A DNA stretch of 64,000 nt from a virus (taxonomy: Duplodnaviria; Heunggongvirae; Uroviricota; Caudoviricetes): the IMG/VR virus record IMGVR_UViG_3300044858_003749. The stretch is one strand, 5' to 3'. The first letter of the stretch is position 1. The number at the start of each line of letters is the position of its first letter. This document shows positions 35,328 through 59,869 of the stretch, one piece after another. The notes beneath the pieces were generated by a model. That model searched no databases, was not told the DNA's origin, and worked only from the letters and a program-made list of their open reading frames with translations. The position numbers were made by a program, and so were the translations under genes.

Positions 35328-35862
35328 TCCCAACATATCACCAGAAACATTAGCTAGTCTGGCTAATAATGATTATGGGGTTGTTCGTTTTGGGGTTGCA
35401 ACAAATCCTAACACACCACCAGAAGCATTAGAACTTCTGGCGAATGATGATCATATTGATGTTCGTCGTGGGGTTGCAGTGAATCCCAACACACCACCAG
35501 AAACATTAGAACTTCTGGCTAATGATGAGAATGTTGGTGTTCGTGTGAGGGTTGCAGGAAATCTCAACACACTACCAGAAGCATTAGAACGTCTTGCTAA
35601 TGATGGCGATTATTATGTTCGTTATTGGGTTGCATCAATTACCAACACACCACCAAAAATATTAGTTATTATGGCTAACGATAAGCATTCTCATGTTCGT
35701 AGCTGTGTTGCATCTAATACCAATACACCACCAGAAGCCTTAGAACGTCTGGCTAATGATAATAATTGGCTTGTTCGTTGGCAGGTTGCATATAATCCCA
35801 ACACTCCCCAATACATTCTAACTTATCTTAAAATCAAGGAGTTTCTGAATTATTATGAGTAA
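35314..35862 (+). CDS. LRV/HEAT-like repeat protein (member F, 6 repeats)
   Basis: 182 aa of repeats plus cap. Its start overlaps the 'YYEQL*' of member E. Confidence 0.7.
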   Translation: MSNYNPNISPETLASLANNDYGVVRFGVATNPNTPPEALELLANDDHIDVRRGVAVNPNTPPETLELLANDENVGVRVRVAGNLNTLPEALERLANDGDYYVRYWVASITNTPPKILVIMANDKHSHVRSCVASNTNTPPEALERLANDNNWLVRWQVAYNPNTPQYILTYLKIKEFLNYYE

Positions 35863-39996: not shown

Positions 39997-40533
39997 TTGG
40001 CTATGTATGAAGATTATTCTAAAAAACAATTAGCTCTTCTGGCTAATGATAAACATTATTATGTTCGTTGTGGTGTTGCAAATAATCCCAACACACAACC
40101 AGAAACATTAGATCGTTTAGCGAACGATGAGCATCTGCATGTTCGTAGATATGTTGCACGAAATCCAAACACACCACCAGAAGCCTTAGATCGTCTGGCT
40201 AATGATGAGGATTCTTGGGTTCGTCTTGGGGTTGCAAGACATCCCAACACACCACCAGAAGTTTTAGAATGTTTGGCTAATGATAAGGATTATTCTGTTC
40301 GTTGTTGGGTTGCGAGAAATCCCAACACAACACCAGAAACCTTAGATCGTCTGGCTAATGATGAGCATTATTATGTTCGTACGCCGGTTGCATTTAATCC
40401 CAACACACCACCAAAAAGCTTAGAACGTCTGGCTAATGATGAGGATTGGTATGTTCGTTTTGGAGTTACAATAAATCCCAGCACACCTCAATACATTAAA
40501 ACCTATCTTAAAATTTTAAAATTATTCAAATGA
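39997..40533 (+). CDS. LRV/HEAT-like repeat protein (member I, 5 repeats)
   Basis: Repeats plus cap 'PQYIKTYLKILKLFK'. Confidence 0.7.
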   Translation: MAMYEDYSKKQLALLANDKHYYVRCGVANNPNTQPETLDRLANDEHLHVRRYVARNPNTPPEALDRLANDEDSWVRLGVARHPNTPPEVLECLANDKDYSVRCWVARNPNTTPETLDRLANDEHYYVRTPVAFNPNTPPKSLERLANDEDWYVRFGVTINPSTPQYIKTYLKILKLFK

Positions 40534-43153: not shown

Positions 43154-43963
43154 ATGTCTCTCGTAAAAGTTGGTATTGGTGCTGGAGCACTTCTTGGAGT
43201 TATTCTGCTTACTGCTGGACAATTCACAACTATTAACACTGGTGAAAATGGATTATACATCGGATTTGATGGCCAGGTAAAAAATGAGATCCTTACTCCT
43301 GGTATCAAATATGATGGTCTAGGATCTATTAAAGTCTTCAACACCCGTAAGATTACTGTTACAGCAAATGATCTTCGTCCTAAAACAAAGGACAATACGA
43401 TTATGAAGGAGATGGATGTGACTGTAACTTACAGTATCAATCCTACTTCTCTGTATGAGTTCTATACGAATTATGATCTTACTAATCACGCAATTGGTGA
43501 TGGTGGACAAGTTCAATTGATGTCTAGTTATATCTCTCGTCTGATTACATCCTCTGTTAATCAGTCGGTTGACGAGTTTCCTGCTCTTGCAGTAAATTCA
43601 AACTTGGAACAAATCCAAGACACTATTAAGAATAATCTTTCAGGTGCACTCAAGAAGAACGGTCTGGAAGGTAAGATTACTATTGATTCAATTATCGTAG
43701 GTAAAGCCGACCTTCCCGATGACCTTGTTGCTTCTGTGAATCGTGTGGTTGCCGCCCAGTCTGCTAACAAAGAGCAACAAGTAAGGACTGAAACTGCTCA
43801 GTTGAAAGCGGAGGAAAACAAAGCTCTAGCATCTACAGTATCGTCACAATCACTTGAGTACCAAAGGAACGAAATTCTTCGTGCCGCGATGGAGAACGGA
43901 AGCATCCAGAAAATGCTTATTGTGAATGGTACGCCTCTTCAGTTCTTCCCAACTGACAAATAA
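43154..43963 (+). CDS. SPFH/Band-7 (prohibitin/HflC-like) membrane protein
   Basis: N-terminal TM segment, then 'TINTGENGLYIGFDGQV...YDGLGSIKVFNTRKITV', typical of the SPFH fold. Confidence 0.6.
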   Translation: MSLVKVGIGAGALLGVILLTAGQFTTINTGENGLYIGFDGQVKNEILTPGIKYDGLGSIKVFNTRKITVTANDLRPKTKDNTIMKEMDVTVTYSINPTSLYEFYTNYDLTNHAIGDGGQVQLMSSYISRLITSSVNQSVDEFPALAVNSNLEQIQDTIKNNLSGALKKNGLEGKITIDSIIVGKADLPDDLVASVNRVVAAQSANKEQQVRTETAQLKAEENKALASTVSSQSLEYQRNEILRAAMENGSIQKMLIVNGTPLQFFPTDK

Positions 43964-44421: not shown

Positions 44422-44821
44422 AAATAAATTTTGGGACCTTGAATCTAATCTAAATGAGATTGAATCCAATTATTTGGATCTTGAAGAGCAGTTAGCACAT
44501 TTTGTTACAGATTCGCTTCTACTTATTGAAAACTTAGATCTTGAATCTTTGGCAATACCAATATTCGCTCAGAGTCTTATTATTCGTAATTACCGAGATT
44601 ACAAATATCAAGATTTATTAAAAAAATTACTGGTATCTAAAAATTTCACACCAGGCCTAATATACCGCACAAGAGAAATTTTTACAGAAAAAGAGTTTGA
44701 ACCTTTTTTACAATACTTACTACAAAATCCAAATTTAGACCAGTATGCAAGAGAATACTACACCAACCTAAAAAAATCTTATGACCGAAGACTTACTAGG
44801 GAACAAACTAAAAAAGCTTGA
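44402..44821 (+). CDS. hypothetical protein
   Basis: 139-aa ORF. Confidence 0.35.
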   Translation: METHEIENKFWDLESNLNEIESNYLDLEEQLAHFVTDSLLLIENLDLESLAIPIFAQSLIIRNYRDYKYQDLLKKLLVSKNFTPGLIYRTREIFTEKEFEPFLQYLLQNPNLDQYAREYYTNLKKSYDRRLTREQTKKA

Positions 44822-45551
44822 GCAACTGGAGGCTGGGCGTTATGCCGATCCTTTTCTTCCACTCATGGCCAGAATTGATGGTAAGTGCTTCAGTAATTTC
44901 ACTAGAAGTCTAAAACGTCCTTATGACGAGAGATTTATTCGGCTTATGATAGCAACGACAAAATATCTTGTTGAAGAAAGTGAGGCTATTTTAGGTTATT
45001 GCCAATCTGATGAAATTACTCTTTATTGGTACTTAGATAAAGAAAACTTTTCCAATAGAGAATTCTGGTTTCGTGGTAAGTTTCAGAAATTAACTTCTGT
45101 CTTAGCCTCAACTGCTAGCTCTTATTTTTGTGGTAATCTCGCACATTATTTACCAGAAAAGACTGGTAACTATCCAACCTTTGATACAAGAGTTTGGAGT
45201 GTTCCCGATTTGGAATGCGTTTATGAGAATTTTCTATGGCGGTTTAAGGATGCGAGAAAAAATTCTGTATCCATGTATGCAAGACATTTCTTTTCACCAA
45301 ACCAGCTTTTTAAAAAGTCCTGTGAAGAAATGAAAGAAATGTTAGCGGTTATTCGTAGGCCGTGGGAAGAATTACCTAAATTCTTTACCGATGGGACGTA
45401 TATTAAAAGACAAAAATTCTTATTGTCTCCTTATGATCCTAGATGGAATGACGTTCCCTCTCAATACCGGCCAACAAAACCTGTTGAGCGTACATTGGTT
45501 TCCGTTTGGGAACCAGAGACAACGGTATCACTTGATTGGTTCACTTATTAA
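44781..45551 (+). CDS. Thg1-like tRNA(His) guanylyltransferase / 3'-5' nucleotidyltransferase
   Basis: Motif 'LMARIDGKCFSNFT...KRPYDERF...YCQSDEITLYW' matches the Thg1 pattern (vRiDG.nF, kP.DeR, sDEis). Confidence 0.65.
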   Translation: MTEDLLGNKLKKLEQLEAGRYADPFLPLMARIDGKCFSNFTRSLKRPYDERFIRLMIATTKYLVEESEAILGYCQSDEITLYWYLDKENFSNREFWFRGKFQKLTSVLASTASSYFCGNLAHYLPEKTGNYPTFDTRVWSVPDLECVYENFLWRFKDARKNSVSMYARHFFSPNQLFKKSCEEMKEMLAVIRRPWEELPKFFTDGTYIKRQKFLLSPYDPRWNDVPSQYRPTKPVERTLVSVWEPETTVSLDWFTY

Positions 45552-46131: not shown

Positions 46132-46749
46132 ATGAATTACACCGAAGAACAAGTTAAAGAAATCGTCAGAAATGTCATTTCTGAGATGCAATCTGTAAAT
46201 GTTAAGGATCTTACACTTTACCAAAAAAGGGGTGTTGCAAGAAATCCCAATACAGCACCAGAAGTCTTAGACCGTCTGGCTAATGATAAGGATTCTTATG
46301 TTCGTTGGCAGGTTGCAGAAAATCCCAACACACCACCAGAGACCTTAGAACGTCTGGCTAATGATGACGATTATTGTGTTCGTTGGAGTGTTGCATTTAA
46401 TCCCAACACACCACCAGAAACATTAGCTCGTCTAGCTAATGATGTGGATTATTGTGTTCGTACGCCGGTTGCATTTAATCCCAACACACCACCAGAAGTT
46501 TTAGAACGTCTGGCTAATGATAACGATTCTGTGGTTCGTTATTATGTTGCAAGAAATCCCAACACATTAACAGAAACTTTAGAACGTTTGGCTAATGATA
46601 AGAGTTCTTCTGTTCGTGAATGTGTTGTACAAAATCCTAACTACAAACGGAAATCCAACAATAAGATCACTATTGAGCTTACAGAAGAACAGTTGTCTCA
46701 ATTACGAAAATGTGCAGACATGTTCTCTGGTCTTTTAGGATCTGTATAA
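46132..46749 (+). CDS. LRV/HEAT-like repeat protein (member M, 5 repeats, distinct N- and C-termini)
   Basis: Repeats 'NPNTPPETLERLANDDDYCVRWSVAF'. The C-terminus 'NPNYKRK...' is shared with member N. Confidence 0.7.
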   Translation: MNYTEEQVKEIVRNVISEMQSVNVKDLTLYQKRGVARNPNTAPEVLDRLANDKDSYVRWQVAENPNTPPETLERLANDDDYCVRWSVAFNPNTPPETLARLANDVDYCVRTPVAFNPNTPPEVLERLANDNDSVVRYYVARNPNTLTETLERLANDKSSSVRECVVQNPNYKRKSNNKITIELTEEQLSQLRKCADMFSGLLGSV

Positions 46750-47031: not shown

Positions 47032-47202
47032 CACTTTCAGAACCGTCCACAACCGCTTGACAATCCAGCCAATCCATGGTAGATTGAACAAGTTCAAAGA
47101 TGAGGCAGCAATTCCTTTCTTCTGCAAATAGAAACAAAACTCATCTTGTATTAAGTTGATTCCGCATCAACAACAGCAAAAACATCAACTTGGAGATTAA
47201 TT

Positions 47203-48666
47203 ATGACTTTTATGCAAGCTCTTTCTTCTGAAATGAACGTAACCACCACCGCTAATGGTGCCAAGGCTTACGAATCAACCGAAAATGAATGTCTTGATCT
47301 TTTCGGTTCAATTGGTGCCTGTCGCAATAATATGTCTTTGGCTGAACGGTTGTTCTTTAATGCTTATAACCAACACCCAGAAACTGCCGCTAGAATTCTC
47401 TTCTACTCCCGCGATATTCGTGGAGCTAGTCAAGGTGAGCGAGCCGTATTTCGGGCTCTTATGCCGAAGTTCGCACAAAAGAATCCGACTGTTGCAAAAA
47501 AACTTGTTTCTTTGATTCCTTATTATGGCCGATGGGATGATCTTCTATGTCTAGAAGGAACTCCTGTTTGGACAGAGGCTCTAGAAACTATTAAAGTTCA
47601 ACTTAATGCAGATCTTAATAACAATAAGGTTTCTCTGGCAGCAAAATGGATGCCTAGTATCAATGCTTCAAGCAAAGAAAGCAAGCGTCTTGGTCGGATG
47701 ATTGCGAATCATATGGGTTGGTCTGAACGACAGTATCGTAAGAATCTTTCTACTCTTCGGGCGAAAATTAACATTGTTGAAACTCCGATGTGTGCCAAAG
47801 AGTGGGGACTTATCAATTATGAGAATCTTCCTTCTCGTGCGGCGATGATGTACCGCAAAGCCTTTAAAAAGCACGATGAGACCCGATATAATAACTATCT
47901 CTCTAGTGTAGAGAAAGGTGAAGCGAAGATCAATGCTGGGACTCTGTTTCCTTATGATATTGTGAGCAAGTACCTCTACAAAGGTGCTCATAATGATAAA
48001 ACTCTTGAGCTTCAATGGGATGCTCTTCCTAATTATATGGAAGGACTAGAGTTTAATGGTCTTGTTGTTGCAGACGTTTCAGGATCAATGACTTGCGCTG
48101 CTGGTATGCCATTGGCCGTTTCTATCTCACTTGCGATGTATATTGCCGAAAGAAATCCTTCAAGCGTTTGGAAAAATAAGTTCATCACTTTTTCTCAAAA
48201 TCCAAAACTTCAATCTATTCTTGGTAATAATATTGAAGAGAAAATTAGGTATCTCCAACGTGCTGAATGGGGAGTTAATACTGATCTAATGGCAGTATTC
48301 CGTACTGTTCTTGATGCTGCAACCAATAATAATGTTGCACAATCAGATATGCCCCAGAAGCTAATTATCGTTTCCGATATGCAATTTGATAAGGCTTGTG
48401 CCTCAAATAAGCGAACTAATTTTGAGCAGATTCAGAAACTTTATCGTAAGGCTGGTTATGAAATGCCAGAACTCGTATTCTGGAATGTAAATGCTGGTGC
48501 AAATGTTCCAATTCAGGCCGATGATAATGGAACCTGTCTTGTTTCGGGATGTAGTCCTGCTATTCTAAAGAGTGTTCTTAGTGGTAAAATCGTTTCTCCT
48601 ATTGATGTTATGATGGAAAGTCTTTATGTGGAACGATACGCTCCTATTGGTGAAGCGTTTGCATAA
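47203..48666 (+). CDS. von Willebrand factor A (vWA) domain protein, DUF2828-like
   Basis: MIDAS motif 'LVVADVSGSM'. The N-terminal 'TTANGAKAYESTENECLDLFGSIGACR' block resembles phage/eukaryotic vWA-containing DUF2828 proteins. Confidence 0.55.
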   Translation: MTFMQALSSEMNVTTTANGAKAYESTENECLDLFGSIGACRNNMSLAERLFFNAYNQHPETAARILFYSRDIRGASQGERAVFRALMPKFAQKNPTVAKKLVSLIPYYGRWDDLLCLEGTPVWTEALETIKVQLNADLNNNKVSLAAKWMPSINASSKESKRLGRMIANHMGWSERQYRKNLSTLRAKINIVETPMCAKEWGLINYENLPSRAAMMYRKAFKKHDETRYNNYLSSVEKGEAKINAGTLFPYDIVSKYLYKGAHNDKTLELQWDALPNYMEGLEFNGLVVADVSGSMTCAAGMPLAVSISLAMYIAERNPSSVWKNKFITFSQNPKLQSILGNNIEEKIRYLQRAEWGVNTDLMAVFRTVLDAATNNNVAQSDMPQKLIIVSDMQFDKACASNKRTNFEQIQKLYRKAGYEMPELVFWNVNAGANVPIQADDNGTCLVSGCSPAILKSVLSGKIVSPIDVMMESLYVERYAPIGEAFA

Positions 48667-48734
48667 TTAAATTTCTTAAGATGGTTCAGCAATTCTCATA
48701 TGTTTTGGGTACATAAAAGACCATCTTGTTTAAA

Positions 48735-48848
48735 GAGCGAGTAGCTCAGGGGTAGAGCAACGTAATAACAAATCTCGTTTGAGATTTTAACAGCAATCAA
48801 AACCGCATGTTAAGCCGTAGGCCCCAGGTTCAAATCCTGGCTCGCTCA
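48735..48848 (+). tRNA. tRNA-like gene with ~40-nt insertion in the anticodon region (class II-like; anticodon unresolved)
   Basis: Acceptor GAGCGAG/CTCGCTC, D-arm GCTC-AGGGGTA-GAGC, T-arm CCAGG-TTCAAAT-CCTGG. It is 114 nt long. A stem AACGT/ATGTT flanks a 43-nt loop plus insertion. A possible short variable hairpin is GCC-GTA-GGC. Confidence 0.45.
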
Positions 48849-48958
48849 TCAGATGATTCAGCAATTATCTCTTCGCTAGGAAAACAAAATCATCTAGTTA
48901 AACAATTTTATCAATTCTCAAAAAATGTTCAATTTCGTTATTAATACTAAATAACCAA

Positions 48959-49032
48959 CAGCGGGCGAGTGTAACGGTAGTCACGTCGGGCTCATAACCC
49001 GGAGGAATATGGGTTCAATTCCCAGGTCCGCC
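48959..49032 (+). tRNA. tRNA-Met (CAT), initiator-like
   Basis: Anticodon loop CTCATAA. Three consecutive G:C pairs close the anticodon stem (GGG/CCC). There is a 1:72 A·C mismatch. The T-loop is TTCAATT. Confidence 0.6.
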
Positions 49033-49098
49033 ATCAGATGATTCAGCAATTTCAAAACTTCTTATTGGTTAGAAAAACAAAAATCATCTAGTCTTATT

Positions 49099-49219
49099 AC
49101 GAGAGTAGCCCAATTGGTTGAGGTGAGCGTAAGAAACAAAAATGATCTAGACAGATCATTCAGCAATAATACACTTTCTAAGGAACGCTTTGATGTCAGT
49201 TCAAATCTGACCTCTCGTA
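49099..49219 (+). tRNA. tRNA-like gene with ~47-nt insertion in the anticodon loop (anticodon unresolved)
   Basis: Acceptor ACGAGAG/CTCTCGT, T-arm GTCAG-TTCAAAT-CTGAC. A perfect anticodon stem AGCGT/ACGCT encloses 54 nt. It is 121 nt long. Confidence 0.45.
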
Positions 49220-49335
49220 TTTGGTAGTCGCTAGACACATAGCCTAGAAAGACGCCATATTTTCATTATAAATACAACCAACAGACTTTAACACTACAAA
49301 ACGATCACTTAGTCTGTGTGATCTGAAAGAAACAA

Positions 49336-50040
49336 ATGATGTACTCAAACAACTTTGCTGCGGCAATTAAGGTAAACGGTAAAATTCTCCGTGAGTTCGG
49401 TGATACTGTTTATCTTCCATTCGGCTCTGAATATGAAATCAGACTGAAGAACTTACATTCTCAAAGAGCCAAAGTCAATATTGATATTGACGGTTCTACT
49501 GTTACAGGGAATGGTCTTATTATCCGACCCCAACAGACTGTAGATCTAGAAAGATTCATTCGTGATAATCTAAACGAAGGTAATAAATTCAAGTTTATTG
49601 AGCGAACAGATAAGATTGAAAATCATCGCGGAATTAAACTTGAAGATGGATTGATTACGATTCGTTTTGAGTTTGAAATTACTCTTAATAATTTTGCTAT
49701 TTCAACTCCATTAACTTATAGATCTTATGGTGGAGGTCTTTATAACTCTTCTAATGTGGTTTCTAATAATATTGTAAGCGTTCCCGTAAATGATACAGGA
49801 ATCACTGTAGAAGGATCCAAAAGCGATCAATCGTTTGGTGCGACAAGTTGGTTTGGATCTATTGGTGGGACTCATGTTTTGAACATTAAACTTTTAGGTG
49901 AAACTGAAGACAATAAAAAAATTAGAGAACCAGTTACAGTTAAAACTAAATTAGAATGTAAAACTTGTGGTACTATTAACAGTGTAACATCCAAGTTCTG
50001 TTCTGAATGTGGAACATCTTTACACATCGTAGCCGCCTGA
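49336..50040 (+). CDS. hypothetical protein with C-terminal zinc-ribbon
   Basis: 234 aa, ending in 'CKTCGTINSVTSKFCSECGTSL' (CxxC...CxxC). Confidence 0.4.
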   Translation: MMYSNNFAAAIKVNGKILREFGDTVYLPFGSEYEIRLKNLHSQRAKVNIDIDGSTVTGNGLIIRPQQTVDLERFIRDNLNEGNKFKFIERTDKIENHRGIKLEDGLITIRFEFEITLNNFAISTPLTYRSYGGGLYNSSNVVSNNIVSVPVNDTGITVEGSKSDQSFGATSWFGSIGGTHVLNIKLLGETEDNKKIREPVTVKTKLECKTCGTINSVTSKFCSECGTSLHIVAA

Positions 50041-51320: not shown

Positions 51321-51838
51321 CTGAACAAGAGCAAAAACTATTAAACAAGTTTCTTTCCTCTATTGAAGAAGACGAAAAGTTCTTCAAAGAGATTATGAAC
51401 CGAACAGATGAAGACGCAAGACTTCTTCAATGGATTGTCAATAATAATATCAATCCTTACGGTGTTTTTCCTTATTATATTGCTGGCAGTCTTTCCGAAT
51501 TACAATCCTTTGTTGCCATCTACATTAAGATGACGTATCAAAGAAAGCACTGTGAAATTAATTACGTCAACGTTGAAAGAACAAGTAGCTCACATGATCA
51601 TGTTGATAACCTAGGACCGAGAGTAGTTTTTGTTGGTAAATGGGAAGATGATTTTCATGCGCTAGTTAAAAAAGAATTAAATCTACCCGACGATGAGCTA
51701 CCATGGGAATCATACACTTATGACTTTGACATCTTAGAAAACGTAGACGCCTTTATTGAAACATACAATAGGGTTGAAGATTATCACAAGAATCGTTATG
51801 AAGAAAACAGTAAGCTTGCGGATAGGTGGTTATCATGA
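51317..51838 (+). CDS. hypothetical protein
   Basis: 173-aa ORF. Confidence 0.35.
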
Positions 51839-53313
51839 ATGAAGAAACATCACAATTTTTATCAGCCAGGTTGGATAAGATTTCAGAACTACAGAAAATA
51901 GGGCAAGTTGCATATGCTAATTCTTTTCACCCTACAATTAAAGCATTAGAATTACATAAGAATTATTTTAATCTGGAAAATGGTTCTGAATGTGATGATA
52001 ATGTTGTTATAGCTGGTCGTATTATCGCAAGAAGAGTATTCGGTAAGTTGTCATTTTTTACTCTTTCCGATGACAGTGGAACAATTCAGCTTTATATTGA
52101 GAACGCCATCGTTGGTTCCGATATTGTTTCCTTAACCGATGTCGGCGACTGGATCGGCGCCACCGGCACCCTGCGGCGCACCGACCGGGGCGAGCTTTCG
52201 GTCAAGGTGCGCGACTGGACGATGCTCAGCAAGTCGCTTCAGCCCCTGCCCGACAAGTGGCATGGCCTGGCGGACGTGGAGAAGCGCTACCGGCAGCGCT
52301 ATCTCGATCTGATCGTCTCCCCCCACACCCGCGAAACTTTCCGGCGACGTGCCATTTTGATTAGAACTATTCGCAATTGGCTTGACTCGCGGGAATTTTT
52401 GGAGATTGAAACTCCTATTCTACAAACCGAAGTTGGCGGAGCCGAGGCCAAACCTTTCTCAACATATCATAACACTCTAGATCTATCATTAACTCTAAGA
52501 ATTGCGACCGAGTTGCACCTTAAGAGGATGATTGTTGGTGGTTTTGAAAGAGTTTATGAGTTGGGTCGTATATTTCGTAATGAAGGTCTAAGCACCCGCC
52601 ATAATCCAGAGTTTACAACCGTTGAGATTTATCAGGCATATGCAGATTATAATGATATGATGATTTTAACAGAAAATCTCATATCTACTTGCGCAGAGAC
52701 AGTTTGTGGTTCTACTGTAATAGTTTATCAAGATGAAAAAATTGATCTAACTCCTCCTTGGAATAAATGTACAATGCACGAATTGGTTTTTGAGCATACT
52801 GGTCTTGATTTTCATCAATTTTCGTCAAGAACCGATGCCGCTAATGCTATGGAAACTATTGGATTGGTTGTTCCTGATAGTGCCGATTCCGTTGGTCGGT
52901 TATTAAACGAAGCCTTTGAACAAAGAGTTGAAAAACAGCTCATTCAACCGACTTTTGTTTTAGATTATCCTGTTGAAATTTCTCCACTGGCCCGTTCTCA
53001 TAGAGAAAAACCGGAATTGGTTGAAAGATTTGAATTATTCATCTTTGGTCGTGAAATTGCCAATGCCTTTAGCGAACTCACCGATCCTTTAGAACAGAGA
53101 AAAAGATTAGAAGAACAACAAACCCGCCGCAATAATGGCGATCAAGAGGCTCACACTATTGATGAAGACTTTTTAAACGCACTTGAAATTGGAATGCCGC
53201 CAACCGGAGGACTAGGTATTGGTATAGACAGATTGACAATGTTACTTACGGATAGTCCGTCTATTCGTGATGTTATCGCTTTTCCTTTAATGCGCCCAGA
53301 GGACAAAACATGA
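51826..53313 (+). CDS. lysS: lysyl-tRNA synthetase (class II)
   Basis: Class II motifs '[23 protein letters not shown]' and '[15 protein letters not shown]'. N-terminal OB anticodon-binding region. Contains the GC-rich patch at 52136-52353. Confidence 0.85.
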
Positions 53314-55559: not shown

Positions 55560-55631
55560 CTGGAAATAAGTCAGTGGTAGACGGTCTAGTTTGGGGCTAG
55601 AAAGACGTTGGTTCGAGTCCAACTTTTCAGA
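55560..55631 (+). tRNA. tRNA-Pro (TGG)
   Basis: Acceptor CTGGAAA/TTTTCAG (one G·U pair), anticodon arm TCTAG-TTTGGGG-CTAGA, T-arm GTTGG-TTCGAGT-CCAAC. 72 nt. Confidence 0.7.
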
Positions 55632-55701: not shown

Positions 55702-56760
55702 ATGAAAAAATACGATGCGGTGGTTTTCATCGGCAGGTTTCAACCTTTCCATAACGCTCATTTTGATATTATCAAAAAAGCTTATGAGCTAACTGATTAT
55801 GTAATTCTTATCGCGGGTTCTCAGTATCAACCACCTAGCTATAAGAATCCATTTCAGGCTTTAACTTTTGACGGTTATTTTGATTCAATTGGAAAAACCA
55901 TTGATAATTATCTTAGAGTTAACTTTGAGGATTATTATGACGAAGACCGTAACTATGAGTTCTCGTTTTGTTTTCAACGAGATATTTACGGTGATAATCT
56001 CTGGTGCAAAAGTGTACAGGAAAAAGTATCAGAATTATTCTTAGGTCAAGAAGCTGAAATAGCCATTATTGGTTGTAATAAGGATGAAAGTTCTTATTAC
56101 TTAAATATGTTCCCTCAGTGGGATCTTATTGAGGTTCCTCTGGATCAAAACCTTAGTGCTACACAGATCAGAGAACTTTATTTCGTTGAAGAACCAAATA
56201 TGAGTTTTCTTCAAGGTGTTGTATCGTCTGAGGTTTTTAATTATCTTGACGAACACAAAAATACCGAATGGCACAATAATATCGTAAACGAACGAAATTT
56301 TATTGAAAAATACAAAGCCCAATATGCTTCTTTCCCATATCCACCAACATTCGTTACTGTAGATTCTGTAGTATTTCAATCCGGTCATGTTCTCGTTGTT
56401 CGGAGAAATGCTTATCCTGGTAAAGGTCTTATTGCTCTTCCTGGTGGATTCTTAGACGCTAATAGTGATGCCTCTTTGGAAGATGCTATGATTAGAGAAC
56501 TGAGAGAGGAAACAGGGCTTAAAGTGCCAACTCCGGTTCTCAAGGGATCTATTAAAGATGTTAAAGTTTTTGATTCTCTTTATAGAAGCTCTCGTGGACG
56601 GACTATTACTCATGCTCATAACATTGTATTGTCTGATGGAGAACTACCTAGAGTCAAAGGTGATTCTGATGCTGATAAGGCTTTCTGGTTACCATTCAGC
56701 CAACTTAAATCAGAGCAATTTTTTGAAGACCATTATCAAATTATCAATTATTTTCTATGA
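55702..56760 (+). CDS. natV: bifunctional NMN adenylyltransferase / Nudix hydrolase (NatV-type)
   Basis: N-terminal nucleotidyltransferase 'GRFQPFHNAH' (HxGH-type). C-terminal Nudix box 'GGFLDANSDASLEDAMIRELREETGL'. Confidence 0.8.
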   Translation: MKKYDAVVFIGRFQPFHNAHFDIIKKAYELTDYVILIAGSQYQPPSYKNPFQALTFDGYFDSIGKTIDNYLRVNFEDYYDEDRNYEFSFCFQRDIYGDNLWCKSVQEKVSELFLGQEAEIAIIGCNKDESSYYLNMFPQWDLIEVPLDQNLSATQIRELYFVEEPNMSFLQGVVSSEVFNYLDEHKNTEWHNNIVNERNFIEKYKAQYASFPYPPTFVTVDSVVFQSGHVLVVRRNAYPGKGLIALPGGFLDANSDASLEDAMIRELREETGLKVPTPVLKGSIKDVKVFDSLYRSSRGRTITHAHNIVLSDGELPRVKGDSDADKAFWLPFSQLKSEQFFEDHYQIINYFL

Positions 56761-56957
56761 TTATGAATCAAGTGCAACTGAGTAAAATGTCAAGAGAAGA
56801 AAAACTTAAGGCATTGGCTTTAATTGATAAAAACATTGAGACAACAAAACTTAAATTAAGCCAATTACATCATGAAGCCTATAAGTTGCAATATGAATTA
56901 GGTTATTACGCTAAAAAAGAAATCCTTTATGGAATTAAATATGATGTTCAAAATTAA
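56757..56957 (+). CDS. hypothetical small protein
   Basis: 66-aa ORF. Confidence 0.3.
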   Translation: MIMNQVQLSKMSREEKLKALALIDKNIETTKLKLSQLHHEAYKLQYELGYYAKKEILYGIKYDVQN

Positions 56958-57477
56958 TAAAAATCGAAACTTCCTAGAAGACTATAAGAAATATTATTTC
57001 TTTTATGATACTCCATTGTCAAATTGGGCAGGTTATTCTTTTGTTGATACAACAACTGGAGTTTCTTACAATTGCTCAGAACAGTTTATGATGCACAAGA
57101 AGGCCCTACTTTTTTCTGATTATAATACTGCCGGCAAGATCATGAATAAAGAATACCCAGGAGATCAAAAAGCCTTGGGTAGAATGGTGGCAGGCTTTGA
57201 TGTTAGCATTTGGAATGAATATGCAAGAGATCTTGTGTATGAAGGATGTTATTATAAGTTTACCCAAAATAAGGAAGCTTATGAATATCTTATGGGGACA
57301 GAAGGTTATCTTCTAGTAGAGGCATCACCAACAGATACTATTTGGGGTATTGGACTTGGAGGTTATGATGCAGATAATCAAGATCCTAAAAATTGGAGAG
57401 GAACTAACTGGTTGGGTGAAGTTCTTACACAACTACGAGAAGATTTGAAAGATAACCCAGAGTTAGTTTTATTCTAG
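56929..57477 (+). CDS. NADAR domain protein (YbiA-like, DUF1768)
   Basis: 'SNWAGYSF...YNCSEQFMMHKKALLF...TIWGIGLGG...NWRGTNWLGEVL' follows the NADAR pattern. Confidence 0.6.
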   Translation: MELNMMFKINKNRNFLEDYKKYYFFYDTPLSNWAGYSFVDTTTGVSYNCSEQFMMHKKALLFSDYNTAGKIMNKEYPGDQKALGRMVAGFDVSIWNEYARDLVYEGCYYKFTQNKEAYEYLMGTEGYLLVEASPTDTIWGIGLGGYDADNQDPKNWRGTNWLGEVLTQLREDLKDNPELVLF

Positions 57478-57501
57478 TCAGATGTAAAGACTTTAAAACA
57501 T

Positions 57502-57524
57502 AATTCAACGATAGACGTTGAATT
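57502..57524 (+). promoter_or_regulatory. perfect 9-bp hairpin upstream of nadV
   Basis: AATTCAACG, loop ATAGA, CGTTGAATT. It lies 30 nt upstream of the nadV RBS. Confidence 0.3.
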
Positions 57525-57553
57525 TTATCCACTATCATTTTAAGGAGTTTAAA

Positions 57554-59869
57554 ATGGACAACATTATTCTTTCTGCTGATTCTTACAAATACTCTCAGTT
57601 CAATCAATATCCTCCACAAACAGAGGGTGTTTATTCTTACATTGAGAGTCGCGGTGGTGGAGAAGAAGTTCTCTTTATGGGTCTTCAGATCTATCTTAAG
57701 GAATATCTATCTCGTCCCATTCGCATGGAAGATATTGACGAAGCAGAGGAACTTATTCTCGCTCACGGAGAACCTTTTTATCGTGGCGGGTGGGAATACA
57801 TCGTTAAGAAGCATGGTGGTTATCTACCCGTAAGAGTAAAAGCCGTTCCAGAAGGAATGGTGATTCCAACGAAAAATGTTTTGGTTACGATTGAGAATAC
57901 AGATCCAAACTGCTATTGGCTGACAAGTTTTCTAGAGACAAGTCTTCTTCGGCATGTTTGGTTTCCAACAACGGTTGCGACGAATTCTTATAACATCAAG
58001 AAGCTTATTTTGAGTTACTTGATTCGTAATGGAGATCCCAATACGATTGATTATAAGCTACATGACTTTGCATTTCGAGGTGTGTCTTCTTCTGAATCTG
58101 CCGGAATCGGTGGTATTGCACACCTTGTTAATTTCAAGGGAACTGATACAGTTGCCGCTCTTCGTTATGGTAGAAAATATTATAACGAAAAAATGGCAGG
58201 CTACTCGGTCCCAGCTTCAGAACATGGTGGAATCACGAGTTGGGGTAAAGAAAACGAAGTAGCGGCATATAGAAATATGCTTAATCATTATGCTAAGCCT
58301 GGTGCTATCGTCGCTTGTGTAAGTGACAGTTATGACATTTATAACGCTTGCGATAAGCTCTGGGGTGAGGAGTTAAAGGATGAAGTTATTGCTTCTGGTG
58401 CTACTCTGACGGTCAGGCCGGATTGTTATGATGATCAAACTAAGATTTTAACTCCTAGTGGGTGGAAATTATTTTGTGAATTATCGGAAAACGATCTGGT
58501 TGCCCAGGTTAATCCCGATAAAACTTATGAATTTGTCAAACCTCTTGAAATTATTAATGAATATTATGAAGGAGAAATGTATCAAATTCGGGATTTTCAC
58601 GGAAAAATTGATCTCTTAGTCACTCCTAATCATAGATTAGTGGTTGTAGATAGAGCTGGTGAACTTATAGTAAAAGAAGCCAAAGATTATAACCCAAAAA
58701 ATTTGAATTACCGAAAACTTCGTTCGGCTAAGGCCAAAACTTTTGGGAAAAATTTAACCTGGCACGAAAGACTATTAATCGCATTACAGGCTGATGGTAC
58801 TATTAGAAAAACGACCTCCAATAAGACGAGTATTGAATTCAATTTTCAAAAAGAGCGAAAGCATAATAGATTATTAAATATTCTTAATAATTTAAATTAT
58901 GAGTATAGTGTCTTTTATAGTGAGTCTAGGGAGGGCCAATCAATTATAACCGTGTCAATACCATTGGGTGAAATTGTTTCTAAAACATTTGATTGGGTTG
59001 ATATTTCAAACTTGGATAGTCAATGGTGTGAGCAATTTATAGATGAATTAAAACATTGGGATTCTTCTATTAGAAATAGTGGAAGATTTAAATATGATAC
59101 TACAGTTAAATTTAACATAGACGTAGTAGAATATATTGCCATTTCTTCAGGGAAAGGGATTTTAATTTCCGTCGCCGAAGATAATAGACAATCTTATTAT
59201 TCTGATGTTTATACTGCACATATATTGGATAATCCTTATTCTGGTGGTCAGACCATAACCAAAACAAAAGTTAATTATAAAGGAAGTGTACATTGTGTTA
59301 AAGTTCCGAGTGGTATGGTTTTAGTTAAAAGACACCGGGGAGTTTCTGTTTCTGGAAATTCTGGAGAACCTGTAGAAGTGAATCTTAAGTGTGCTCAAAT
59401 TCTTGAAAGTCATTATGGATCTACCGTAAACTCTAAAGGATTTAAGGTACTCAATAACGTCAAGCTCATTCAGGGTGATGGTGTTAATTATGAAACTGTA
59501 GATCGGGTTCTTCATGTACTTGAATCTAACGGATATAGTAGTGATAACATTGGTTTCGGAATGGGTGGCGCCCTGCTCCAGGCTGTTACTCGTGATGATT
59601 ACAAATTTGCCATGAAGTGTAGTGCGGTTAATGTGGCTGGAAATTGGAGGGATGTTTACAAGGATCCTATTACAGATCCAGGTAAAACATCTAAGAAAGG
59701 TCGTCTGAATCTGATTCATACCGATAATGGTTACGAAACGGTTCCTGAACGCCCATGGAATAAAGATGTTCTTGAGGTTGTTTATGAGAATGGAGAACTT
59801 CTAAAGGATTATACTTTGGAAGAAATCCGAGTGAACGCAAATCGGTGTATTCATAATTACTTCGCATAA
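57554..59869 (+). CDS. nadV: nicotinamide phosphoribosyltransferase (NadV/NAMPT) interrupted by an intein
   Basis: RBS AAGGAG. The exteins are continuous across 'ATLTVRPD | SGEPVEV', the conserved NAMPT RPDSG site. The 312-aa insert is described in the next entry. Confidence 0.8.
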   Translation: MDNIILSADSYKYSQFNQYPPQTEGVYSYIESRGGGEEVLFMGLQIYLKEYLSRPIRMEDIDEAEELILAHGEPFYRGGWEYIVKKHGGYLPVRVKAVPEGMVIPTKNVLVTIENTDPNCYWLTSFLETSLLRHVWFPTTVATNSYNIKKLILSYLIRNGDPNTIDYKLHDFAFRGVSSSESAGIGGIAHLVNFKGTDTVAALRYGRKYYNEKMAGYSVPASEHGGITSWGKENEVAAYRNMLNHYAKPGAIVACVSDSYDIYNACDKLWGEELKDEVIASGATLTVRPDCYDDQTKILTPSGWKLFCELSENDLVAQVNPDKTYEFVKPLEIINEYYEGEMYQIRDFHGKIDLLVTPNHRLVVVDRAGELIVKEAKDYNPKNLNYRKLRSAKAKTFGKNLTWHERLLIALQADGTIRKTTSNKTSIEFNFQKERKHNRLLNILNNLNYEYSVFYSESREGQSIITVSIPLGEIVSKTFDWVDISNLDSQWCEQFIDELKHWDSSIRNSGRFKYDTTVKFNIDVVEYIAISSGKGILISVAEDNRQSYYSDVYTAHILDNPYSGGQTITKTKVNYKGSVHCVKVPSGMVLVKRHRGVSVSGNSGEPVEVNLKCAQILESHYGSTVNSKGFKVLNNVKLIQGDGVNYETVDRVLHVLESNGYSSDNIGFGMGGALLQAVTRDDYKFAMKCSAVNVAGNWRDVYKDPITDPGKTSKKGRLNLIHTDNGYETVPERPWNKDVLEVVYENGELLKDYTLEEIRVNANRCIHNYFA
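58424..59359 (+). mobile_element. intein (312 aa) with LAGLIDADG-like homing endonuclease domain inside nadV
   Basis: Starts with Cys ('CYDDQTKILT') and has block B 'LVTPNH'. It ends '...SVSGN' with a +1 Ser. An internal 'LLIALQADGTI' is LAGLIDADG-like. Confidence 0.6.

What the first reader, a model, noticed from the sequence alone, without database searches (positions are those of the whole stretch)
48735..49219. Two of three clustered tRNA genes carry ~40-50-nt insertions in the anticodon region
The genes at 48735-48848 (114 nt) and 49099-49219 (121 nt) have clean acceptor stems, D-arms and canonical T-arms (TTCAAAT loops), but are 40-50 nt too long. In the second, a perfect 5-bp anticodon stem (AGCGT/ACGCT) encloses 54 nt instead of 7. 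In the first, AACGT/ATGTT encloses 43 nt. Both inserts begin 'AA-AACAAA', contain a tight hairpin, then '(T)CAGCAAT'. They are too small for group I introns. They may be small spliceosome-independent introns or insertions of a small repeat element that disrupt the tRNAs. The tRNA between them (48959-49032) is intact and initiator-like (CAU).
Basis: seen in the sequence. Interest (0 to 1): 0.8.

Follow-up and report, generated by a model that had tools for sequence, protein, structure and literature searches.

The report
tRNA-shaped RNAs carrying a Ro60-partner module
The two over-long phage tRNA genes are real; their inserts are copies of a conserved RNA module that recurs as hairpins between the tRNAs and upstream of the neighbouring Ro60-like gene, so they look like tRNA-shaped partner RNAs (Y-RNA analogues) of that protein, not classical introns or broken genes.

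Summary
Window 48735-48848 (114 nt) and 49099-49219 (121 nt) are full tRNA cloverleaves with 42- and 47-nt inserts in the anticodon arm, and an intact initiator-like tRNA-Met (48960-49033) lies between them.

The insert is a conserved module: an A-rich strand, a 6-8 bp hairpin P1 and CAGCAAU. The same module, circularly permuted, forms three spacer hairpins and two hairpins in the 5'UTR of the upstream gene (47203-48666). That makes seven copies in 2.1 kb, all on one strand, against about 0.5 expected by chance in the whole window.

The upstream gene (Pfam DUF2828/DUF7788) folds like Ro60 (TROVE plus vWA). Known Ro60 partners are Y RNAs, which are often tRNA mimics encoded next to the gene.

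About 70 distinct module-bearing tRNA-like genes occur in related jumbo cyanophage-like contigs, and all helices show compensatory changes. The module core is invariant, the anticodon triplet is the most variable part, and position 32 is A in 67% (0.5% in ordinary tRNAs of the same phages).

Best reading: these are tRNA-scaffolded Y-RNA analogues bound by the Ro60-like protein. Binding and retention of the insert are inferred, not shown. Splicing is not excluded, because precise excision would restore canonical tRNA-Asn(GUU) and tRNA-Leu(AAG). I found no prior description.

The parts
47057..47085 (+). Sigma-70-like promoter TTGACA-17-TAGATT (TG-extended), upstream of the two 5'UTR hairpins and the Ro60-like gene
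   Evidence: 10 of 12 matches. The region as a whole has no more such sites than shuffles, so this is a prediction only. No terminator-like site was found between here and 50200.
47097..47147 (+). 5'UTR module copy 1, open form: P1 AAGATGAG/CTCATCTT, GCAGCAAT after the 5' strand, AAACAAAA before the 3' strand
   Evidence: The syntenic copies in relatives carry compensatory changes (AGATGAG/CTCATCT against AGATCAG/CTGATCT).
47153..47190 (+). 5'UTR module copy 2, open form: P1 AAGTTGAT/ATCAACTT with TCCGCATC after the 5' strand. The 3' strand abuts the Shine-Dalgarno GGAG (47191-47194); the ATG is at 47203
   Evidence: (z -2.7). Conserved in 24 of 26 close relatives; in 19 of 26 a hairpin ends within 25 nt of the start codon.
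47203..48666 (+). Ro60-like protein gene, 487 aa (Pfam DUF2828 + DUF7788; helical-repeat TROVE-like N-terminal part and vWA-like C-terminal part)
   Evidence: Pfam; PHROG 850 'RNA-binding protein'; AlphaFold model pLDDT 77; Foldseek top hits 9kop, 1yvr, 9l5y_B, 9nep_A, all Ro60/TROVE, probability 1.0, E 9e-7 to 4e-4.
48678..48727 (+). Stand-alone module hairpin H0, open form: AAGATGGT-TCAGCAAT...inner hairpin...AAAAG-ACCATCTT. It ends 7 nt before W1
   Evidence: (MFE shows P1 plus an inner hairpin; z -2.7).
48735..48848 (+). W1: tRNA-shaped RNA gene, 114 nt. Acceptor 48735-41/48841-47; D arm 48744-58; split anticodon stem ACG 48760-62 + GC 48805-06 pairing with GCCGT 48814-18; loop AUGUUAA 48807-13 (GUU triplet); T arm 48824-40; discriminator A 48848
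   Evidence: Rfam tRNA 50.7 bits; fold z -4.3; covariation in the type A alignment; strict restorability test.
48763..48804 (+). Module inside W1, closed form, 42 nt: UAAUAAC, then P1 AAATCTC-GTTT-GAGATTT (48770-48787), then UAA-CAGCAAU (48791-97), then CAAAACC. It branches from the 5' strand of the anticodon stem between stem positions 3 and 4
48851..48895 (+). Stand-alone module hairpin H1, open form: AGATGAT-TCAGCAAT...GGAAAACAAA-ATCATCT. It starts 2 nt after the W1 discriminator
   Evidence: The single-sequence fold is ambiguous.
48960..49033 (+). Canonical tRNA-Met(CAU), initiator-like, without a module
   Evidence: ARAGORN; Rfam 38.7 bits.
49036..49089 (+). Stand-alone module hairpin H2, open form: AGATGAT-TCAGCAAT...inner hairpin...AAAAACAAAA-ATCATCT. 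It lies 2 nt after tRNA-Met and 9 nt before W3
   Evidence: (z -2.7).
49099..49219 (+). W3: tRNA-shaped RNA gene, 121 nt, with a Leu-type D arm. Acceptor 49099-105/49212-18; anticodon stem AGCGT 49126-30 / ACGCT 49185-89; loop CUAAGGA 49178-84 (AAG triplet, G37); T arm 49195-211; discriminator A 49219
   Evidence: ARAGORN -i: tRNA-Leu(aag) i(33,47); structural scan; orthologue L218:139-258 with compensatory changes in the acceptor stem, the anticodon stem and P1.
49131..49177 (+). Module inside W3, closed form, 47 nt: AAGAAACAAA, then P1 AATGATCT-AGAC-AGATCATT (49141-49160), then CAGCAAU (49161-67), then AAUACACUUU. It is inserted right after the 5' strand of the anticodon stem
   Evidence: (P1 is in both the MFE and the centroid structure).

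Best explanation
W1 and W3 are conserved, tRNA-shaped non-coding RNA genes. Their anticodon arm carries a roughly 45-nt RNA module: an A-rich strand, a hairpin P1 ending in AGAUnnU, and the strand (N0-4)CAGCAAU.

The same module exists in circularly permuted form. There P1 is formed by the 5' and 3' ends, and the two conserved strands face a small inner hairpin. In that form it makes the stand-alone ~50-nt hairpins that fill the spacers of the tRNA array and the two hairpins in the 5'UTR of the adjacent gene.

That gene encodes a Ro60-like (TROVE + vWA) protein. I infer that the module is this protein's binding site. The locus would then be a phage version of the Ro60/Y-RNA system, with three parts:
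- stand-alone hairpins as simple Y-like RNAs (YrlB-like);
- W1 and W3 as Y-like RNAs built on a complete tRNA scaffold, that is, a circular permutation of the YrlA design, with the acceptor end open and the Ro module closed by a loop;
- 5'UTR copies abutting the ribosome-binding site, which would let the protein repress its own translation.

Likely course of events: one transcript runs from the promoter at 47057. RNase P and 3'-end enzymes release the tRNA-shaped units and the spacer hairpins. The Ro60-like protein binds the module. The tRNA body gives stability and a handle for tRNA-binding factors.

Shown here: the anatomy, its conservation and covariation, the permutation, the fold of the protein, and the co-occurrence of RNA motif and protein clade.

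Inferred: binding, retention of the insert in the mature RNA, autoregulation, and the downstream role. Possible roles are RNA quality control or repair, or counter-defence. One version of the latter is display of an anticodon-like loop as bait for tRNA-targeting host nucleases.
For: 1. The same module appears in two permuted forms with sequence identity across the permutation. Compare AGATCAT-TCAGCAAT and AAACAAAA-ATGATCT in W3 with AGATGAT-TCAGCAAT and AAACAAAA-ATCATCT in the spacers.

2. Seven copies lie on one strand within 2.1 kb, against about 0.5 expected in the whole window.

3. The neighbouring protein is Ro60-like by fold. The same family is annotated 'Ro-like RNA binding protein' in mycobacteriophages. 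In phage Krypton555 a YrlA tRNA-like core (38 bits, E 9e-6) lies 140 nt downstream of the family member. Y RNAs are typically encoded within 4 kb of Ro60 on the same strand and mimic tRNA (PMC4201824).

4. Of 71 loci found by the hairpin pattern alone, 44 contain the Ro-like gene on the same strand, against 1 of 109 control loci.

5. In 24 of 26 close relatives a module hairpin lies just upstream of the Ro-like start codon, with the 3' strand running into the Shine-Dalgarno GGAG. Among relatives below 60% identity it is 2 of 14.

6. About 70 distinct module-bearing tRNA-like genes occur in 38 related loci. In alignments of 30 and 14 of them, cloverleaf helices and P1 are 95-100% paired with changes on both sides. 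No shuffle out of 500 reached the observed values, and slid controls give 36-50% pairing.

7. The module core is invariant, while the anticodon triplet columns are the most variable. Orthologues with the same body carry different triplets, such as UGU/UGG and GCA/GUA/CCA. Some members have no anticodon hairpin, or have 6-, 8- or 9-nt loops.

8. Position 32 is A in 67% of module-bearing loops, against 0.5% of 435 canonical tRNAs from the same phage group. Those phages also carry canonical tRNAs with the same anticodons.

9. Some open forms enclose a T-arm-like hairpin and a 7-bp acceptor-like hairpin, which is the YrlA gene order.

10. Authors working on Bas63 gp130, a Ro60-like phage protein encoded directly upstream of a stretch of tRNA genes, speculated that some of those tRNA genes are Y RNAs (PMC11482910). 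That gp130 belongs to the DUF2828 family is my inference: Bas63 is described there as a non-model phage, and Felixounavirus records carry this family. I did not compare the sequences.
Against: - No binding or expression data exist for this locus.
- The canonical bacterial Ro60-binding motif GNCGAAN0-1G is absent from these RNAs.
- Rfam's YrlA model does not recognise them: 17.5 bits against a gathering score of 69 in the window, and no hit on an open T-arm form.
- Co-occurrence with the Ro-like gene could partly reflect shared synteny with tRNA arrays. The same protein family sits next to ordinary tRNA arrays in other phages that lack the module.
- Excising the module would restore a perfect 5-bp stem and a 7-nt loop with U33 and R37 in W1, W3 and 20 other members, far above chance. 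G follows G36 as in real tRNAs. Both points are what a true intron would predict.
- The AlphaFold model has moderate confidence, and TM-scores to Ro60 structures are only 0.37-0.45.
Confidence: 0.55

Rival explanations
1. True small tRNA introns. The module is excised by an unidentified endonuclease that recognises P1 and its flanking strands, possibly with the Ro60-like protein as cofactor. The halves are then joined by an RNA ligase. The products would be decoding tRNA-Asn(GUU) from W1 and tRNA-Leu(AAG) from W3. The spacer hairpins would be cut by the same enzyme as processing sites, much as archaeal bulge-helix-bulge sites serve both introns and rRNA spacers.
For: Precise deletion restores a 5-bp stem, a 7-nt loop with U33 and R37 and a 4-5-nt variable loop in 22 of 70 members, including W1 and W3, against 0.65% of shuffles. 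The split stem shows compensatory changes. G37 follows G36, as in real tRNAs. The exon sequence matches ordinary uninterrupted phage tRNAs. An RNA ligase gene (PF09414) follows the array in L007, and a Thg1-like gene lies nearby in the window.
Against: - The insertion point varies: 2 or 3 bp into the stem, or after the stem.
- 48 of 70 members cannot give a canonical arm under the strict rule. Several have C33, G33 or C37, others have 6-, 8- or 9-nt loops, and some have no hairpin.
- A32 in 67% against 0.5% in canonical tRNAs.
- The same tRNA body carries different anticodons.
- The host phages already encode canonical tRNAs with the same anticodons.
- No bulge-helix-bulge motif and no splicing endonuclease among the neighbours tested.
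- The module also sits in a 5'UTR, where excision has no obvious purpose.
Confidence: 0.2
2. A processing or stability signal for host or phage RNases (RNase E, III, P or Z), unrelated to the Ro60-like protein. On this view the hairpins only punctuate the polycistronic tRNA precursor, and the embedded copies are tolerated extras.
For: Stand-alone hairpins lie directly after tRNA 3' ends in large tRNA arrays, also far from the Ro-like gene. They start 1-3 nt after the discriminator base.
Against: This does not explain the two copies in the 5'UTR abutting the ribosome-binding site of the Ro-like gene in nearly all close relatives. It does not explain why the motif is restricted to the clade with at least 60% identical Ro-like proteins. 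It also does not explain why the module core is the most conserved part of the embedded genes.
Confidence: 0.12
3. A selfish DNA repeat (miniature mobile element) that has inserted into tRNA genes and spacers, leaving W1 and W3 as pseudogenes.
For: It is a short repeat found many times in one region. GenBank annotates the B3 homologue as a pseudo-tRNA.
Against: All copies are on the transcribed strand. The open and closed forms are circular permutations, which insertion of a single DNA element cannot produce. The insertion site and structure are conserved across phages whose Ro-like proteins are only 64-83% identical, with compensatory changes in P1 and in all tRNA helices. Cloverleaf pairing is 95-100%, which is not expected for decaying pseudogenes.
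Confidence: 0.03
4. A small self-cleaving ribozyme that processes the tRNA precursor.
For: Conserved single-stranded segments flank a helix. Circular permutation is typical of small ribozymes. Ribozymes next to phage tRNAs are known (from my own knowledge; not checked here).
Against: No match to any ribozyme family in Rfam 15, even at E up to 10. The A-rich strand varies in length and sequence. The motif in the 5'UTR would cut the mRNA of the neighbouring gene.
Confidence: 0.03

Closest known systems
Bacterial and phage Y RNAs of the YrlA type with Ro60 (Rsr) (Chen et al. 2014, PMC4201824; Rfam RF02553)
   Same: They are encoded next to a Ro60-type gene on the same strand. They are modular: a protein-binding stem with an internal loop, plus a tRNA-like domain with D arm, T arm and acceptor stem. 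Several RNAs occur per locus, some with and some without the tRNA-like part (YrlA and YrlB). M. smegmatis YrlA is cut by RNase P and receives CCA, so it has tRNA-like ends. An A-rich 3' strand of the internal loop is seen in both.
   Different: - The order here is that of a real tRNA, with the ends in the acceptor stem and the module closed by a loop inside the anticodon arm. This is a circular permutation of YrlA.
- An anticodon-like hairpin is usually kept.
- The conserved strand is CAGCAAU, not GNCGAAN0-1G.
- The Rfam YrlA model does not score these RNAs.
- The protein belongs to the DUF2828/DUF7788 branch, not to Pfam TROVE.
- Module copies also sit in tRNA spacers across the genome and in the protein's own 5'UTR.
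Thermus phage phiLo Ro60 with Yrl1 and Yrl2 (PMC12135203; PDB 9KOP, 9L5Y)
   Same: A phage-encoded Ro60-type protein, which is the best structural match to the window protein. Its partner RNAs are encoded right beside the gene.
   Different: The phiLo Yrl RNAs are stem-bulge-stem RNAs with a CGAA motif and are not tRNA-shaped. Here the RNAs carry a different motif, and two of them are complete cloverleaves.
Bas63 gp130 (Ro60-like phage protein that counters the Ppl defence system; PMC11482910)
   Same: A Ro60-like phage protein encoded directly next to a tRNA array. Its authors proposed that some neighbouring 'tRNA genes' could be Y RNAs. I take it to belong to the same family on the basis, but did not compare the sequences.
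   Different: No RNA partner or motif was defined there. In a related Felixounavirus (EC6) I found only canonical-length tRNAs and no module. Here a specific shared RNA module points to the likely partners.
tRNA introns: bacterial group I introns in tRNA genes, and archaeal/eukaryal bulge-helix-bulge introns
   Same: An intervening sequence in the anticodon arm of a tRNA gene. In silico removal restores a canonical arm in W1 and W3.
   Different: At 42-47 nt it is far below group I size, and no group I hit was found. There is no bulge-helix-bulge motif. The insertion sites are in the 5' strand of the stem or right after it, not at 37/38. The same element exists outside tRNAs.

Membership tests
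tRNA (Rfam RF00005) | Score at or above the gathering threshold over the full model | tested here: met
   W1 scores 50.7 bits against 29, model positions 1-71, with 53 nt skipped. W3 is not reported by Rfam. It is called by ARAGORN -i as tRNA-Leu(aag) i(33,47).
tRNA (decoding) | Continuous 5-bp anticodon stem with a 7-nt loop, pyrimidine 32, U33 and purine 37 in the gene as encoded | tested here: not met
   The stem or loop is interrupted by 42 nt (W1) and 47 nt (W3). Across the family, position 32 is A in 67% against 0.5% in 435 canonical tRNAs, and 48 of 70 members fail a strict canonical test even after the module is removed in silico.
Group I intron in a tRNA gene | Conserved P1-P9 core of about 200 nt or more; match to Rfam Intron_gpI | tested here: not met
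   The inserts are 42 and 47 nt. No such hit at E up to 10 in 48400-49500.
Archaeal/eukaryal enzymatic tRNA intron | Bulge-helix-bulge motif (3-nt bulge, 4-bp helix, 3-nt bulge) at the two junctions | tested here: not met
   Folds of W1 and W3 and inspection of the junctions show no such motif. The junctions lie at stem position 3/4 (W1) and right after the stem (W3).
Archaeal/eukaryal enzymatic tRNA intron | A splicing endonuclease (EndA/Sen) encoded by or available to the phage | tested here: inconclusive
   None was found among 29 window proteins and one L007 protein scanned against Pfam. Not all ORFs of the window were scanned, and the host is unknown.
Y RNA (Ro60 partner RNA) | Encoded close to a Ro60-type gene on the same strand | tested here: met
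   All seven module copies lie within 1.1 kb of the gene, on the + strand. The gene is Ro60-like by fold. Co-occurrence is 44 of 71 against 1 of 109.
Y RNA (Ro60 partner RNA) | Stem with an internal loop carrying a conserved protein-binding motif | tested here: met
   P1 plus conserved strands (CAGCAAU and an A-rich strand) facing a second helix, conserved and covarying. That this motif binds the protein is inferred.
YrlA (Rfam RF02553) | Match to the covariance model at the gathering score; 5' motif GNCGAAN0-1G | tested here: not met
   17.5 bits against 69 in the window, driven by the D arm. No hit on an open T-arm form. No CGAA anywhere in the window's RNA regions.
YrlA-like tRNA mimic | tRNA-like D arm, T arm and acceptor stem | tested here: met
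   Rfam tRNA alignment of W1. 100% pairing with compensatory changes in the acceptor and T stems; the D stem is 95-100% paired with few changes.
Y RNA (Ro60 partner RNA) | Physical association with the Ro60-type protein | not testable with these tools
   Needs gel shift or immunoprecipitation.
Ro60 / TROVE protein family (the neighbouring gene) | Helical-repeat ring plus a C-terminal vWA domain | tested here: met
   Foldseek full-length matches to 9kop, 1yvr, 9l5y_B and 9nep_A (probability 1.0), followed by vWA domains. TM-scores are only 0.37-0.45 and model pLDDT is 77. Ring closure was not checked.
Ro60 / TROVE protein family (the neighbouring gene) | Sequence match to Pfam TROVE or to a solved Ro60 | tested here: not met
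   Pfam reports only DUF2828 and DUF7788. phmmer against PDB sequences finds nothing at E up to 1.
Known self-cleaving ribozymes (Rfam) | Match to a ribozyme covariance model | tested here: not met
   No ribozyme family among hits at E up to 10.

The most novel reading that the evidence does not exclude
The module is a new kind of tRNA intervening sequence in phages. On this reading a ~45-nt, protein-recognised element (the Ro60-like protein acting as cofactor or gatekeeper) is removed to release working tRNAs. Phage tRNAs would then be made only when the phage's own Ro60-like RNP is present, or the unspliced forms would display rapidly changing anticodon loops as baits for host anticodon nucleases.
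Probability: 0.15. Interest if true: 0.9.

Novelty: new variant of a known kind. Interest (0 to 1): 0.68.

Why it matters
- **A candidate RNA partner for a widespread phage protein.** Ro60-like proteins of the DUF2828 family are in nearly 700 sequenced phages, usually beside tRNA arrays, and what they bind is largely unknown. One Ro60-like phage protein, which I take to be of this family, was recently shown to counter a bacterial defence system (PMC11482910). This locus offers a sequence-defined candidate binding site present in three contexts: free hairpins, complete tRNA scaffolds, and the protein's own 5'UTR. Binding, autoregulation and function become directly testable.

- **Mis-annotated genes.** 'Pseudo-tRNA' or missed tRNA calls in jumbo cyanophage genomes are a conserved RNA class. 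I found about 70 distinct genes.

- **A new Y-RNA architecture.** The design extends the range of Y-RNA forms to a full tRNA with the module grafted into the anticodon stem.

- **Possible link to tRNA-targeting defences.** The very variable anticodon triplet on a constant body hints at a connection with host defences that target tRNAs.

Tried and rejected
1. **ARAGORN deletion scan.** I deleted every possible segment and asked whether a canonical tRNA was then called. The test was uninformative, because shuffled controls were positive in 70 of 71 cases. I replaced it with an explicit strict rule.

2. **ARAGORN -i on all long genes.** It gave inconsistent anticodons, because it forces the insert into the loop. 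I trust only the W3 call.

3. **15-mer motif scan of viral contigs.** It returned mostly chance hits. I replaced it with a gapped pattern that requires both strands of P1.

4. **Rfam.** No family other than tRNA matches the region. YrlA does not match an open T-arm form.

5. **Sequence search of the protein against PDB.** Nothing was found. The fold search was needed.

6. **Literature on DUF2828.** Nothing relevant. I found no paper linking cyanophages with Ro60 partner RNAs. The supplementary tables of Chen et al. 2014 were not available, so I could not check whether any cyanophage was in their list.

7. **A matched synthetase for W1.** I suspected that the class II synthetase at 51826-53313 was AsnRS, matching W1's GUU. 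It is LysRS.

8. **Uninterrupted versions at the same locus.** Uninterrupted tRNAs with the same anticodon arm exist only in unrelated phages. They show tRNA ancestry and nothing more.

Rejected in favour of the split stem ACG+GC / GCCGT, which is supported by relatives.
Full report
**1. The observation**

Rfam's tRNA model aligns 48735-48848 end to end (50.7 bits against a gathering score of 29) while skipping 53 nt in the anticodon arm. It also finds the ordinary tRNA at 48960-49033, which ARAGORN calls tRNA-Met(CAT).

The third gene, 49099-49219, is missed by both tools in default mode. ARAGORN with intron search calls it tRNA-Leu(AAG) with a 47-nt insert at position 33. It has a perfect 7-bp acceptor stem, a D arm and a T arm.

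The stem AGCGT/ACGCT (49126-30 / 49185-89) encloses 54 nt, as stated. In that reading ACG (48760-62) and, after the insert, GC (48805-06) pair with GCCGT (48814-18) around the loop AUGUUAA. The insert is then 48763-48804, 42 nt.

**2.

The 'insert' consists of an A-rich strand, a hairpin (P1) and CAGCAAU. The spacers before W1, after W1 and after tRNA-Met each contain AGATGRT-TCAGCAAT…AAAACAAA-AYCATCT. This is the same two conserved strands and the same helix, but with the helix formed by the outer ends.

The sequence is conserved across this circular permutation. W3 has AAACAAAA-ATGATCT…AGATCAT-TCAGCAAT, and the spacers have AGATGAT-TCAGCAAT…AAACAAAA-ATCATCT.

Two further copies lie between a sigma-70-like promoter (47057-47085) and the start codon of the upstream gene. 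The second copy ends directly at the Shine-Dalgarno GGAG.

A strict definition of the composite motif finds five open and two closed copies, all on the + strand within 47098-49167. In 200 dinucleotide shuffles of the whole window, both strands, the means were 0.36 and 0.13.

**3. The neighbouring gene**

ORF 47203-48666 (487 aa) matches Pfam DUF2828 and DUF7788 and PHROG 850 'RNA-binding protein'. It has no sequence match in the PDB.

An AlphaFold model built from 23 homologues (pLDDT 77) was searched against the PDB. The six best hits all cover the full length at probability 1.0, and all are Ro60/TROVE proteins: the phage phiLo TROVE protein 9kop, Xenopus Ro 1yvr, phiLo Ro60 9l5y_B and human Ro60 complexes. 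Isolated vWA domains follow them. TM-scores are modest (0.37-0.45), so I call the protein Ro60-like rather than a proven orthologue.

The family occurs in 697 phage records and is annotated 'Ro-like RNA binding protein' in mycobacteriophages. In mycobacteriophage Krypton555 a YrlA tRNA-like core (38 bits, E 9e-6) lies 140 nt downstream of the family member.

Published work shows three relevant points.
- Y RNAs are usually encoded within 4 kb of Ro60 on the same strand and contain a tRNA-like domain. M. smegmatis YrlA is even cut by RNase P and receives CCA (PMC4201824).
- Phage phiLo Ro60 binds two adjacent Y-like RNAs (PMC12135203).
- Bas63 gp130, a Ro60-like phage protein encoded directly upstream of a stretch of tRNA genes, counters the Ppl defence. 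Its authors guessed that some neighbouring tRNA genes are Y RNAs (PMC11482910). I take gp130 to belong to the DUF2828 family because Felixounavirus records carry this family, but I did not compare the sequences.

**4. Relatives**

*Close relatives.* Synechococcus phage B3 (and B23) has the same layout: the homologous gene, a promoter, hairpins, a 110-nt gene annotated as pseudo-tRNA, another hairpin, and then ordinary tRNAs. IMG/VR contigs whose Ro-like proteins are 64-81% identical have arrays of up to four module-bearing tRNA-like genes interleaved with hairpins.

*Co-occurrence.* A gapped pattern requiring both strands of P1 found 71 stretches in viral contigs. Of these, 44 contain the Ro-like gene on the same strand, against 1 of 109 loci fetched with a non-specific 15-mer. 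The remaining hairpins sit inside large canonical tRNA arrays, directly after a tRNA.

*5'UTR copies.* In 24 of 26 non-redundant close relatives a module hairpin lies in the 200 nt upstream of the Ro-like start codon. In most of them its 3' strand AUYAACUU runs into GGAG. Among relatives below 60% identity the figure is 2 of 14. More distant members of the protein family also sit beside tRNA arrays but lack the module.

**5. The family of module-bearing tRNA-like genes**

*Size and classes.* A structural scan (T arm, matching 7-bp acceptor stem, length 100-135 nt, CNGCA motif) found 71 distinct sequences in 38 related loci plus the window. They fall into several classes, but the plan is the same throughout. 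The module branches from the 5' strand of the anticodon stem after 2-3 bp (W1 and most others), or follows the stem directly (W3 and the other genes with a Leu-type D arm).

*Covariation.* In alignments of 30 and 14 sequences, the acceptor, D and T helices and P1 are 95-100% paired, with many changes on both sides. No shuffle out of 500 reached the observed pairing or covariation, and sliding the partners drops pairing to 36-50%. The split anticodon stem is about 90% paired, with compensatory changes, in the larger alignment.

*What varies.* The module core (…AGAUA-CGGA-CAGCAAU…) is invariant, while the anticodon triplet columns are the most variable of all.

*W3 orthologue.* W3 has an orthologue (L218:139-258) with compensatory changes in the acceptor stem, the anticodon stem and P1.

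**6. Intron or retained module?**

*For an intron.* Under a strict rule, 22 of 70 members, including W1 (GUU) and W3 (AAG), would regain a canonical arm after one precise deletion, against 0.65% of shuffles. The rule requires a stem anchored at position 27, 5 bp, a 7-nt loop with U33 and R37, and a 4-5-nt variable loop. G follows G36, as in real tRNAs. The exon sequence is ordinary tRNA sequence.

*Against an intron.*
- 48 of 70 members fail the rule. Several have C33, G33 or C37, others have 6-, 8- or 9-nt loops, and five have no hairpin at all.
- Position 32 is A in 67% of the 7-nt loops, against 0.5% in 435 canonical tRNAs of the same phage group. U33 and R37 are also less strictly kept.
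- Orthologues with the same body carry different triplets, such as UGU or UGG, and GCA, GUA or CCA. The closest relative of W1's position (L179) has no anticodon hairpin.
- The phages already have canonical tRNAs with the same anticodons.
- There is no bulge-helix-bulge motif, no group I or ribozyme match, and no splicing endonuclease among the proteins I scanned.
- The identical module occurs as free hairpins and in a 5'UTR.
- Some open forms enclose a T-arm-like and a 7-bp acceptor-like hairpin, which is the YrlA order.

I therefore favour a retained module, but splicing of some members is not excluded.

**7. Mechanism proposed**

*Shown.* The locus is a single-strand array: promoter, two hairpins, the Ro60-like ORF, hairpin, W1, hairpin, tRNA-Met, hairpin, W3. 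No terminator-like site was found. The hairpins begin 2 nt after a discriminator base and end 7-9 nt before the next 5' end.

*Inferred.* RNase P and 3'-end enzymes release the units. The Ro60-like protein binds P1 with its two conserved strands. The 5'UTR copies give feedback on its own translation. The tRNA body stabilises the RNA and may attract tRNA-binding factors.

*Downstream role.* This is open. Candidates are RNA quality control or repair, or counter-defence with the variable anticodon-like loop as bait. The surroundings point to tRNA metabolism: a Thg1-like gene, LysRS and CysRS in the window, and an RNA ligase in L007. Published work shows that phage tRNAs evade tRNA-targeting defences (PMC10264068, listed). 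The bait idea remains speculation.

**8. Comparison with known systems, and novelty**

The system works like Ro60 with Y RNAs of the YrlA/YrlB kind. It fails membership of Rfam YrlA on both model score and motif. The protein is on a branch that Pfam does not call TROVE.

In the literature I could search, I found no description of any of the following:
- the grafting of the module into the anticodon stem of a complete tRNA;
- the CAGCAAU motif;
- the permuted free copies in tRNA spacers;
- the 5'UTR copies.

The supplementary tables of Chen et al. 2014 were not available. I rate this a new variant of a known kind.

**9. Verdict**

- The intron-or-disrupting-repeat interpretation is only partly supported.
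- Confidence is about 0.95 that the element is a functional RNA module shared with the hairpins, and about 0.55 for the full Ro60-partner, retained-module model.
- Interest: 0.68.

Noticed in passing
L134 (reverse strand, 7417-7537 in reverse-complement coordinates), L145 2564-2695, L231 (reverse-complement coordinates 3607-3736), L193 (9946-10063 and 13309-13441), L225 (3634-3750): Other kinds of interrupted tRNA-like genes occur in the same phage group, without the CAGCAAU module. One example is a tRNA-Ile body with a 47-nt insert in the anticodon loop, closed by its own helix (CGGTAT/ATACCG) and containing GGGGCAGYACC. A second type has CCUCC…GGAGG inserts. These look more intron-like than W1 and W3.
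   Followed up: no
L006 and L007, 2528-2779: A permuted, cyanobacterial-type tmRNA gene (Rfam RF01851, 115-116 bits) lies at the end of a 12-13-tRNA array, about 220 nt upstream of the Ro60-like gene.
   Followed up: no
window 51826-53313, 60887-62236, 44781-45551: The phage encodes a LysRS (NCBIfam 689 bits), a CysRS and a Thg1-like enzyme (tRNA-His guanylyltransferase family, which includes 3'-5' polymerases) close to the RNA array.
   Followed up: partly
window 55702-59869: An NAD salvage and repair cluster: an NMNAT-Nudix fusion, a NADAR domain protein and NAMPT. tRNA-Pro(UGG) lies at 55560-55631, just upstream.
   Followed up: no
window 35314-35862, 39997-40533, 46132-46749: Three paralogous proteins made of LRV/HEAT-type repeats are scattered upstream of the Ro60-like gene.
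   Followed up: no
window 49336-50040; L002 3800-4386: A 234-aa protein with a C-terminal zinc ribbon is encoded right after W3. In L002 its gene is flanked by module hairpins on both sides. It is absent from the same position in L007, so it is not a constant partner.
   Followed up: partly
L007 5908-6447: An RNA ligase gene (Pfam PF09414) lies about 600 nt after the last module-bearing tRNA-like gene.
   Followed up: partly
L254 (Escherichia phage EC6) 3480-8140; L008-L051: Distant members of the Ro60-like family also sit directly beside long arrays of canonical tRNAs. EC6 has about 18 after the gene. They have neither the module nor a YrlA hit.
   Followed up: partly
window 43154-43963; L232 487-1419: A Band-7/SPFH protein gene lies a few kb upstream of the Ro60-like gene, both in the window and in mycobacteriophage Krypton555. 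This may be a conserved neighbourhood.
   Followed up: no
L006 747-821, 824-901, 2390-2465; L007 238-312: The 'tRNA-Leu' genes in these phages (anticodons AAG, CAA, TAG, GAG) are only 75-78 nt long. They lack the long variable arm expected of bacterial tRNA-Leu.
   Followed up: no
window 18151, 21195, 22951(-), 62039: The other exact TCAGCAAT matches in the window are not picked up by the composite hairpin scan and are most likely chance matches.
   Followed up: yes
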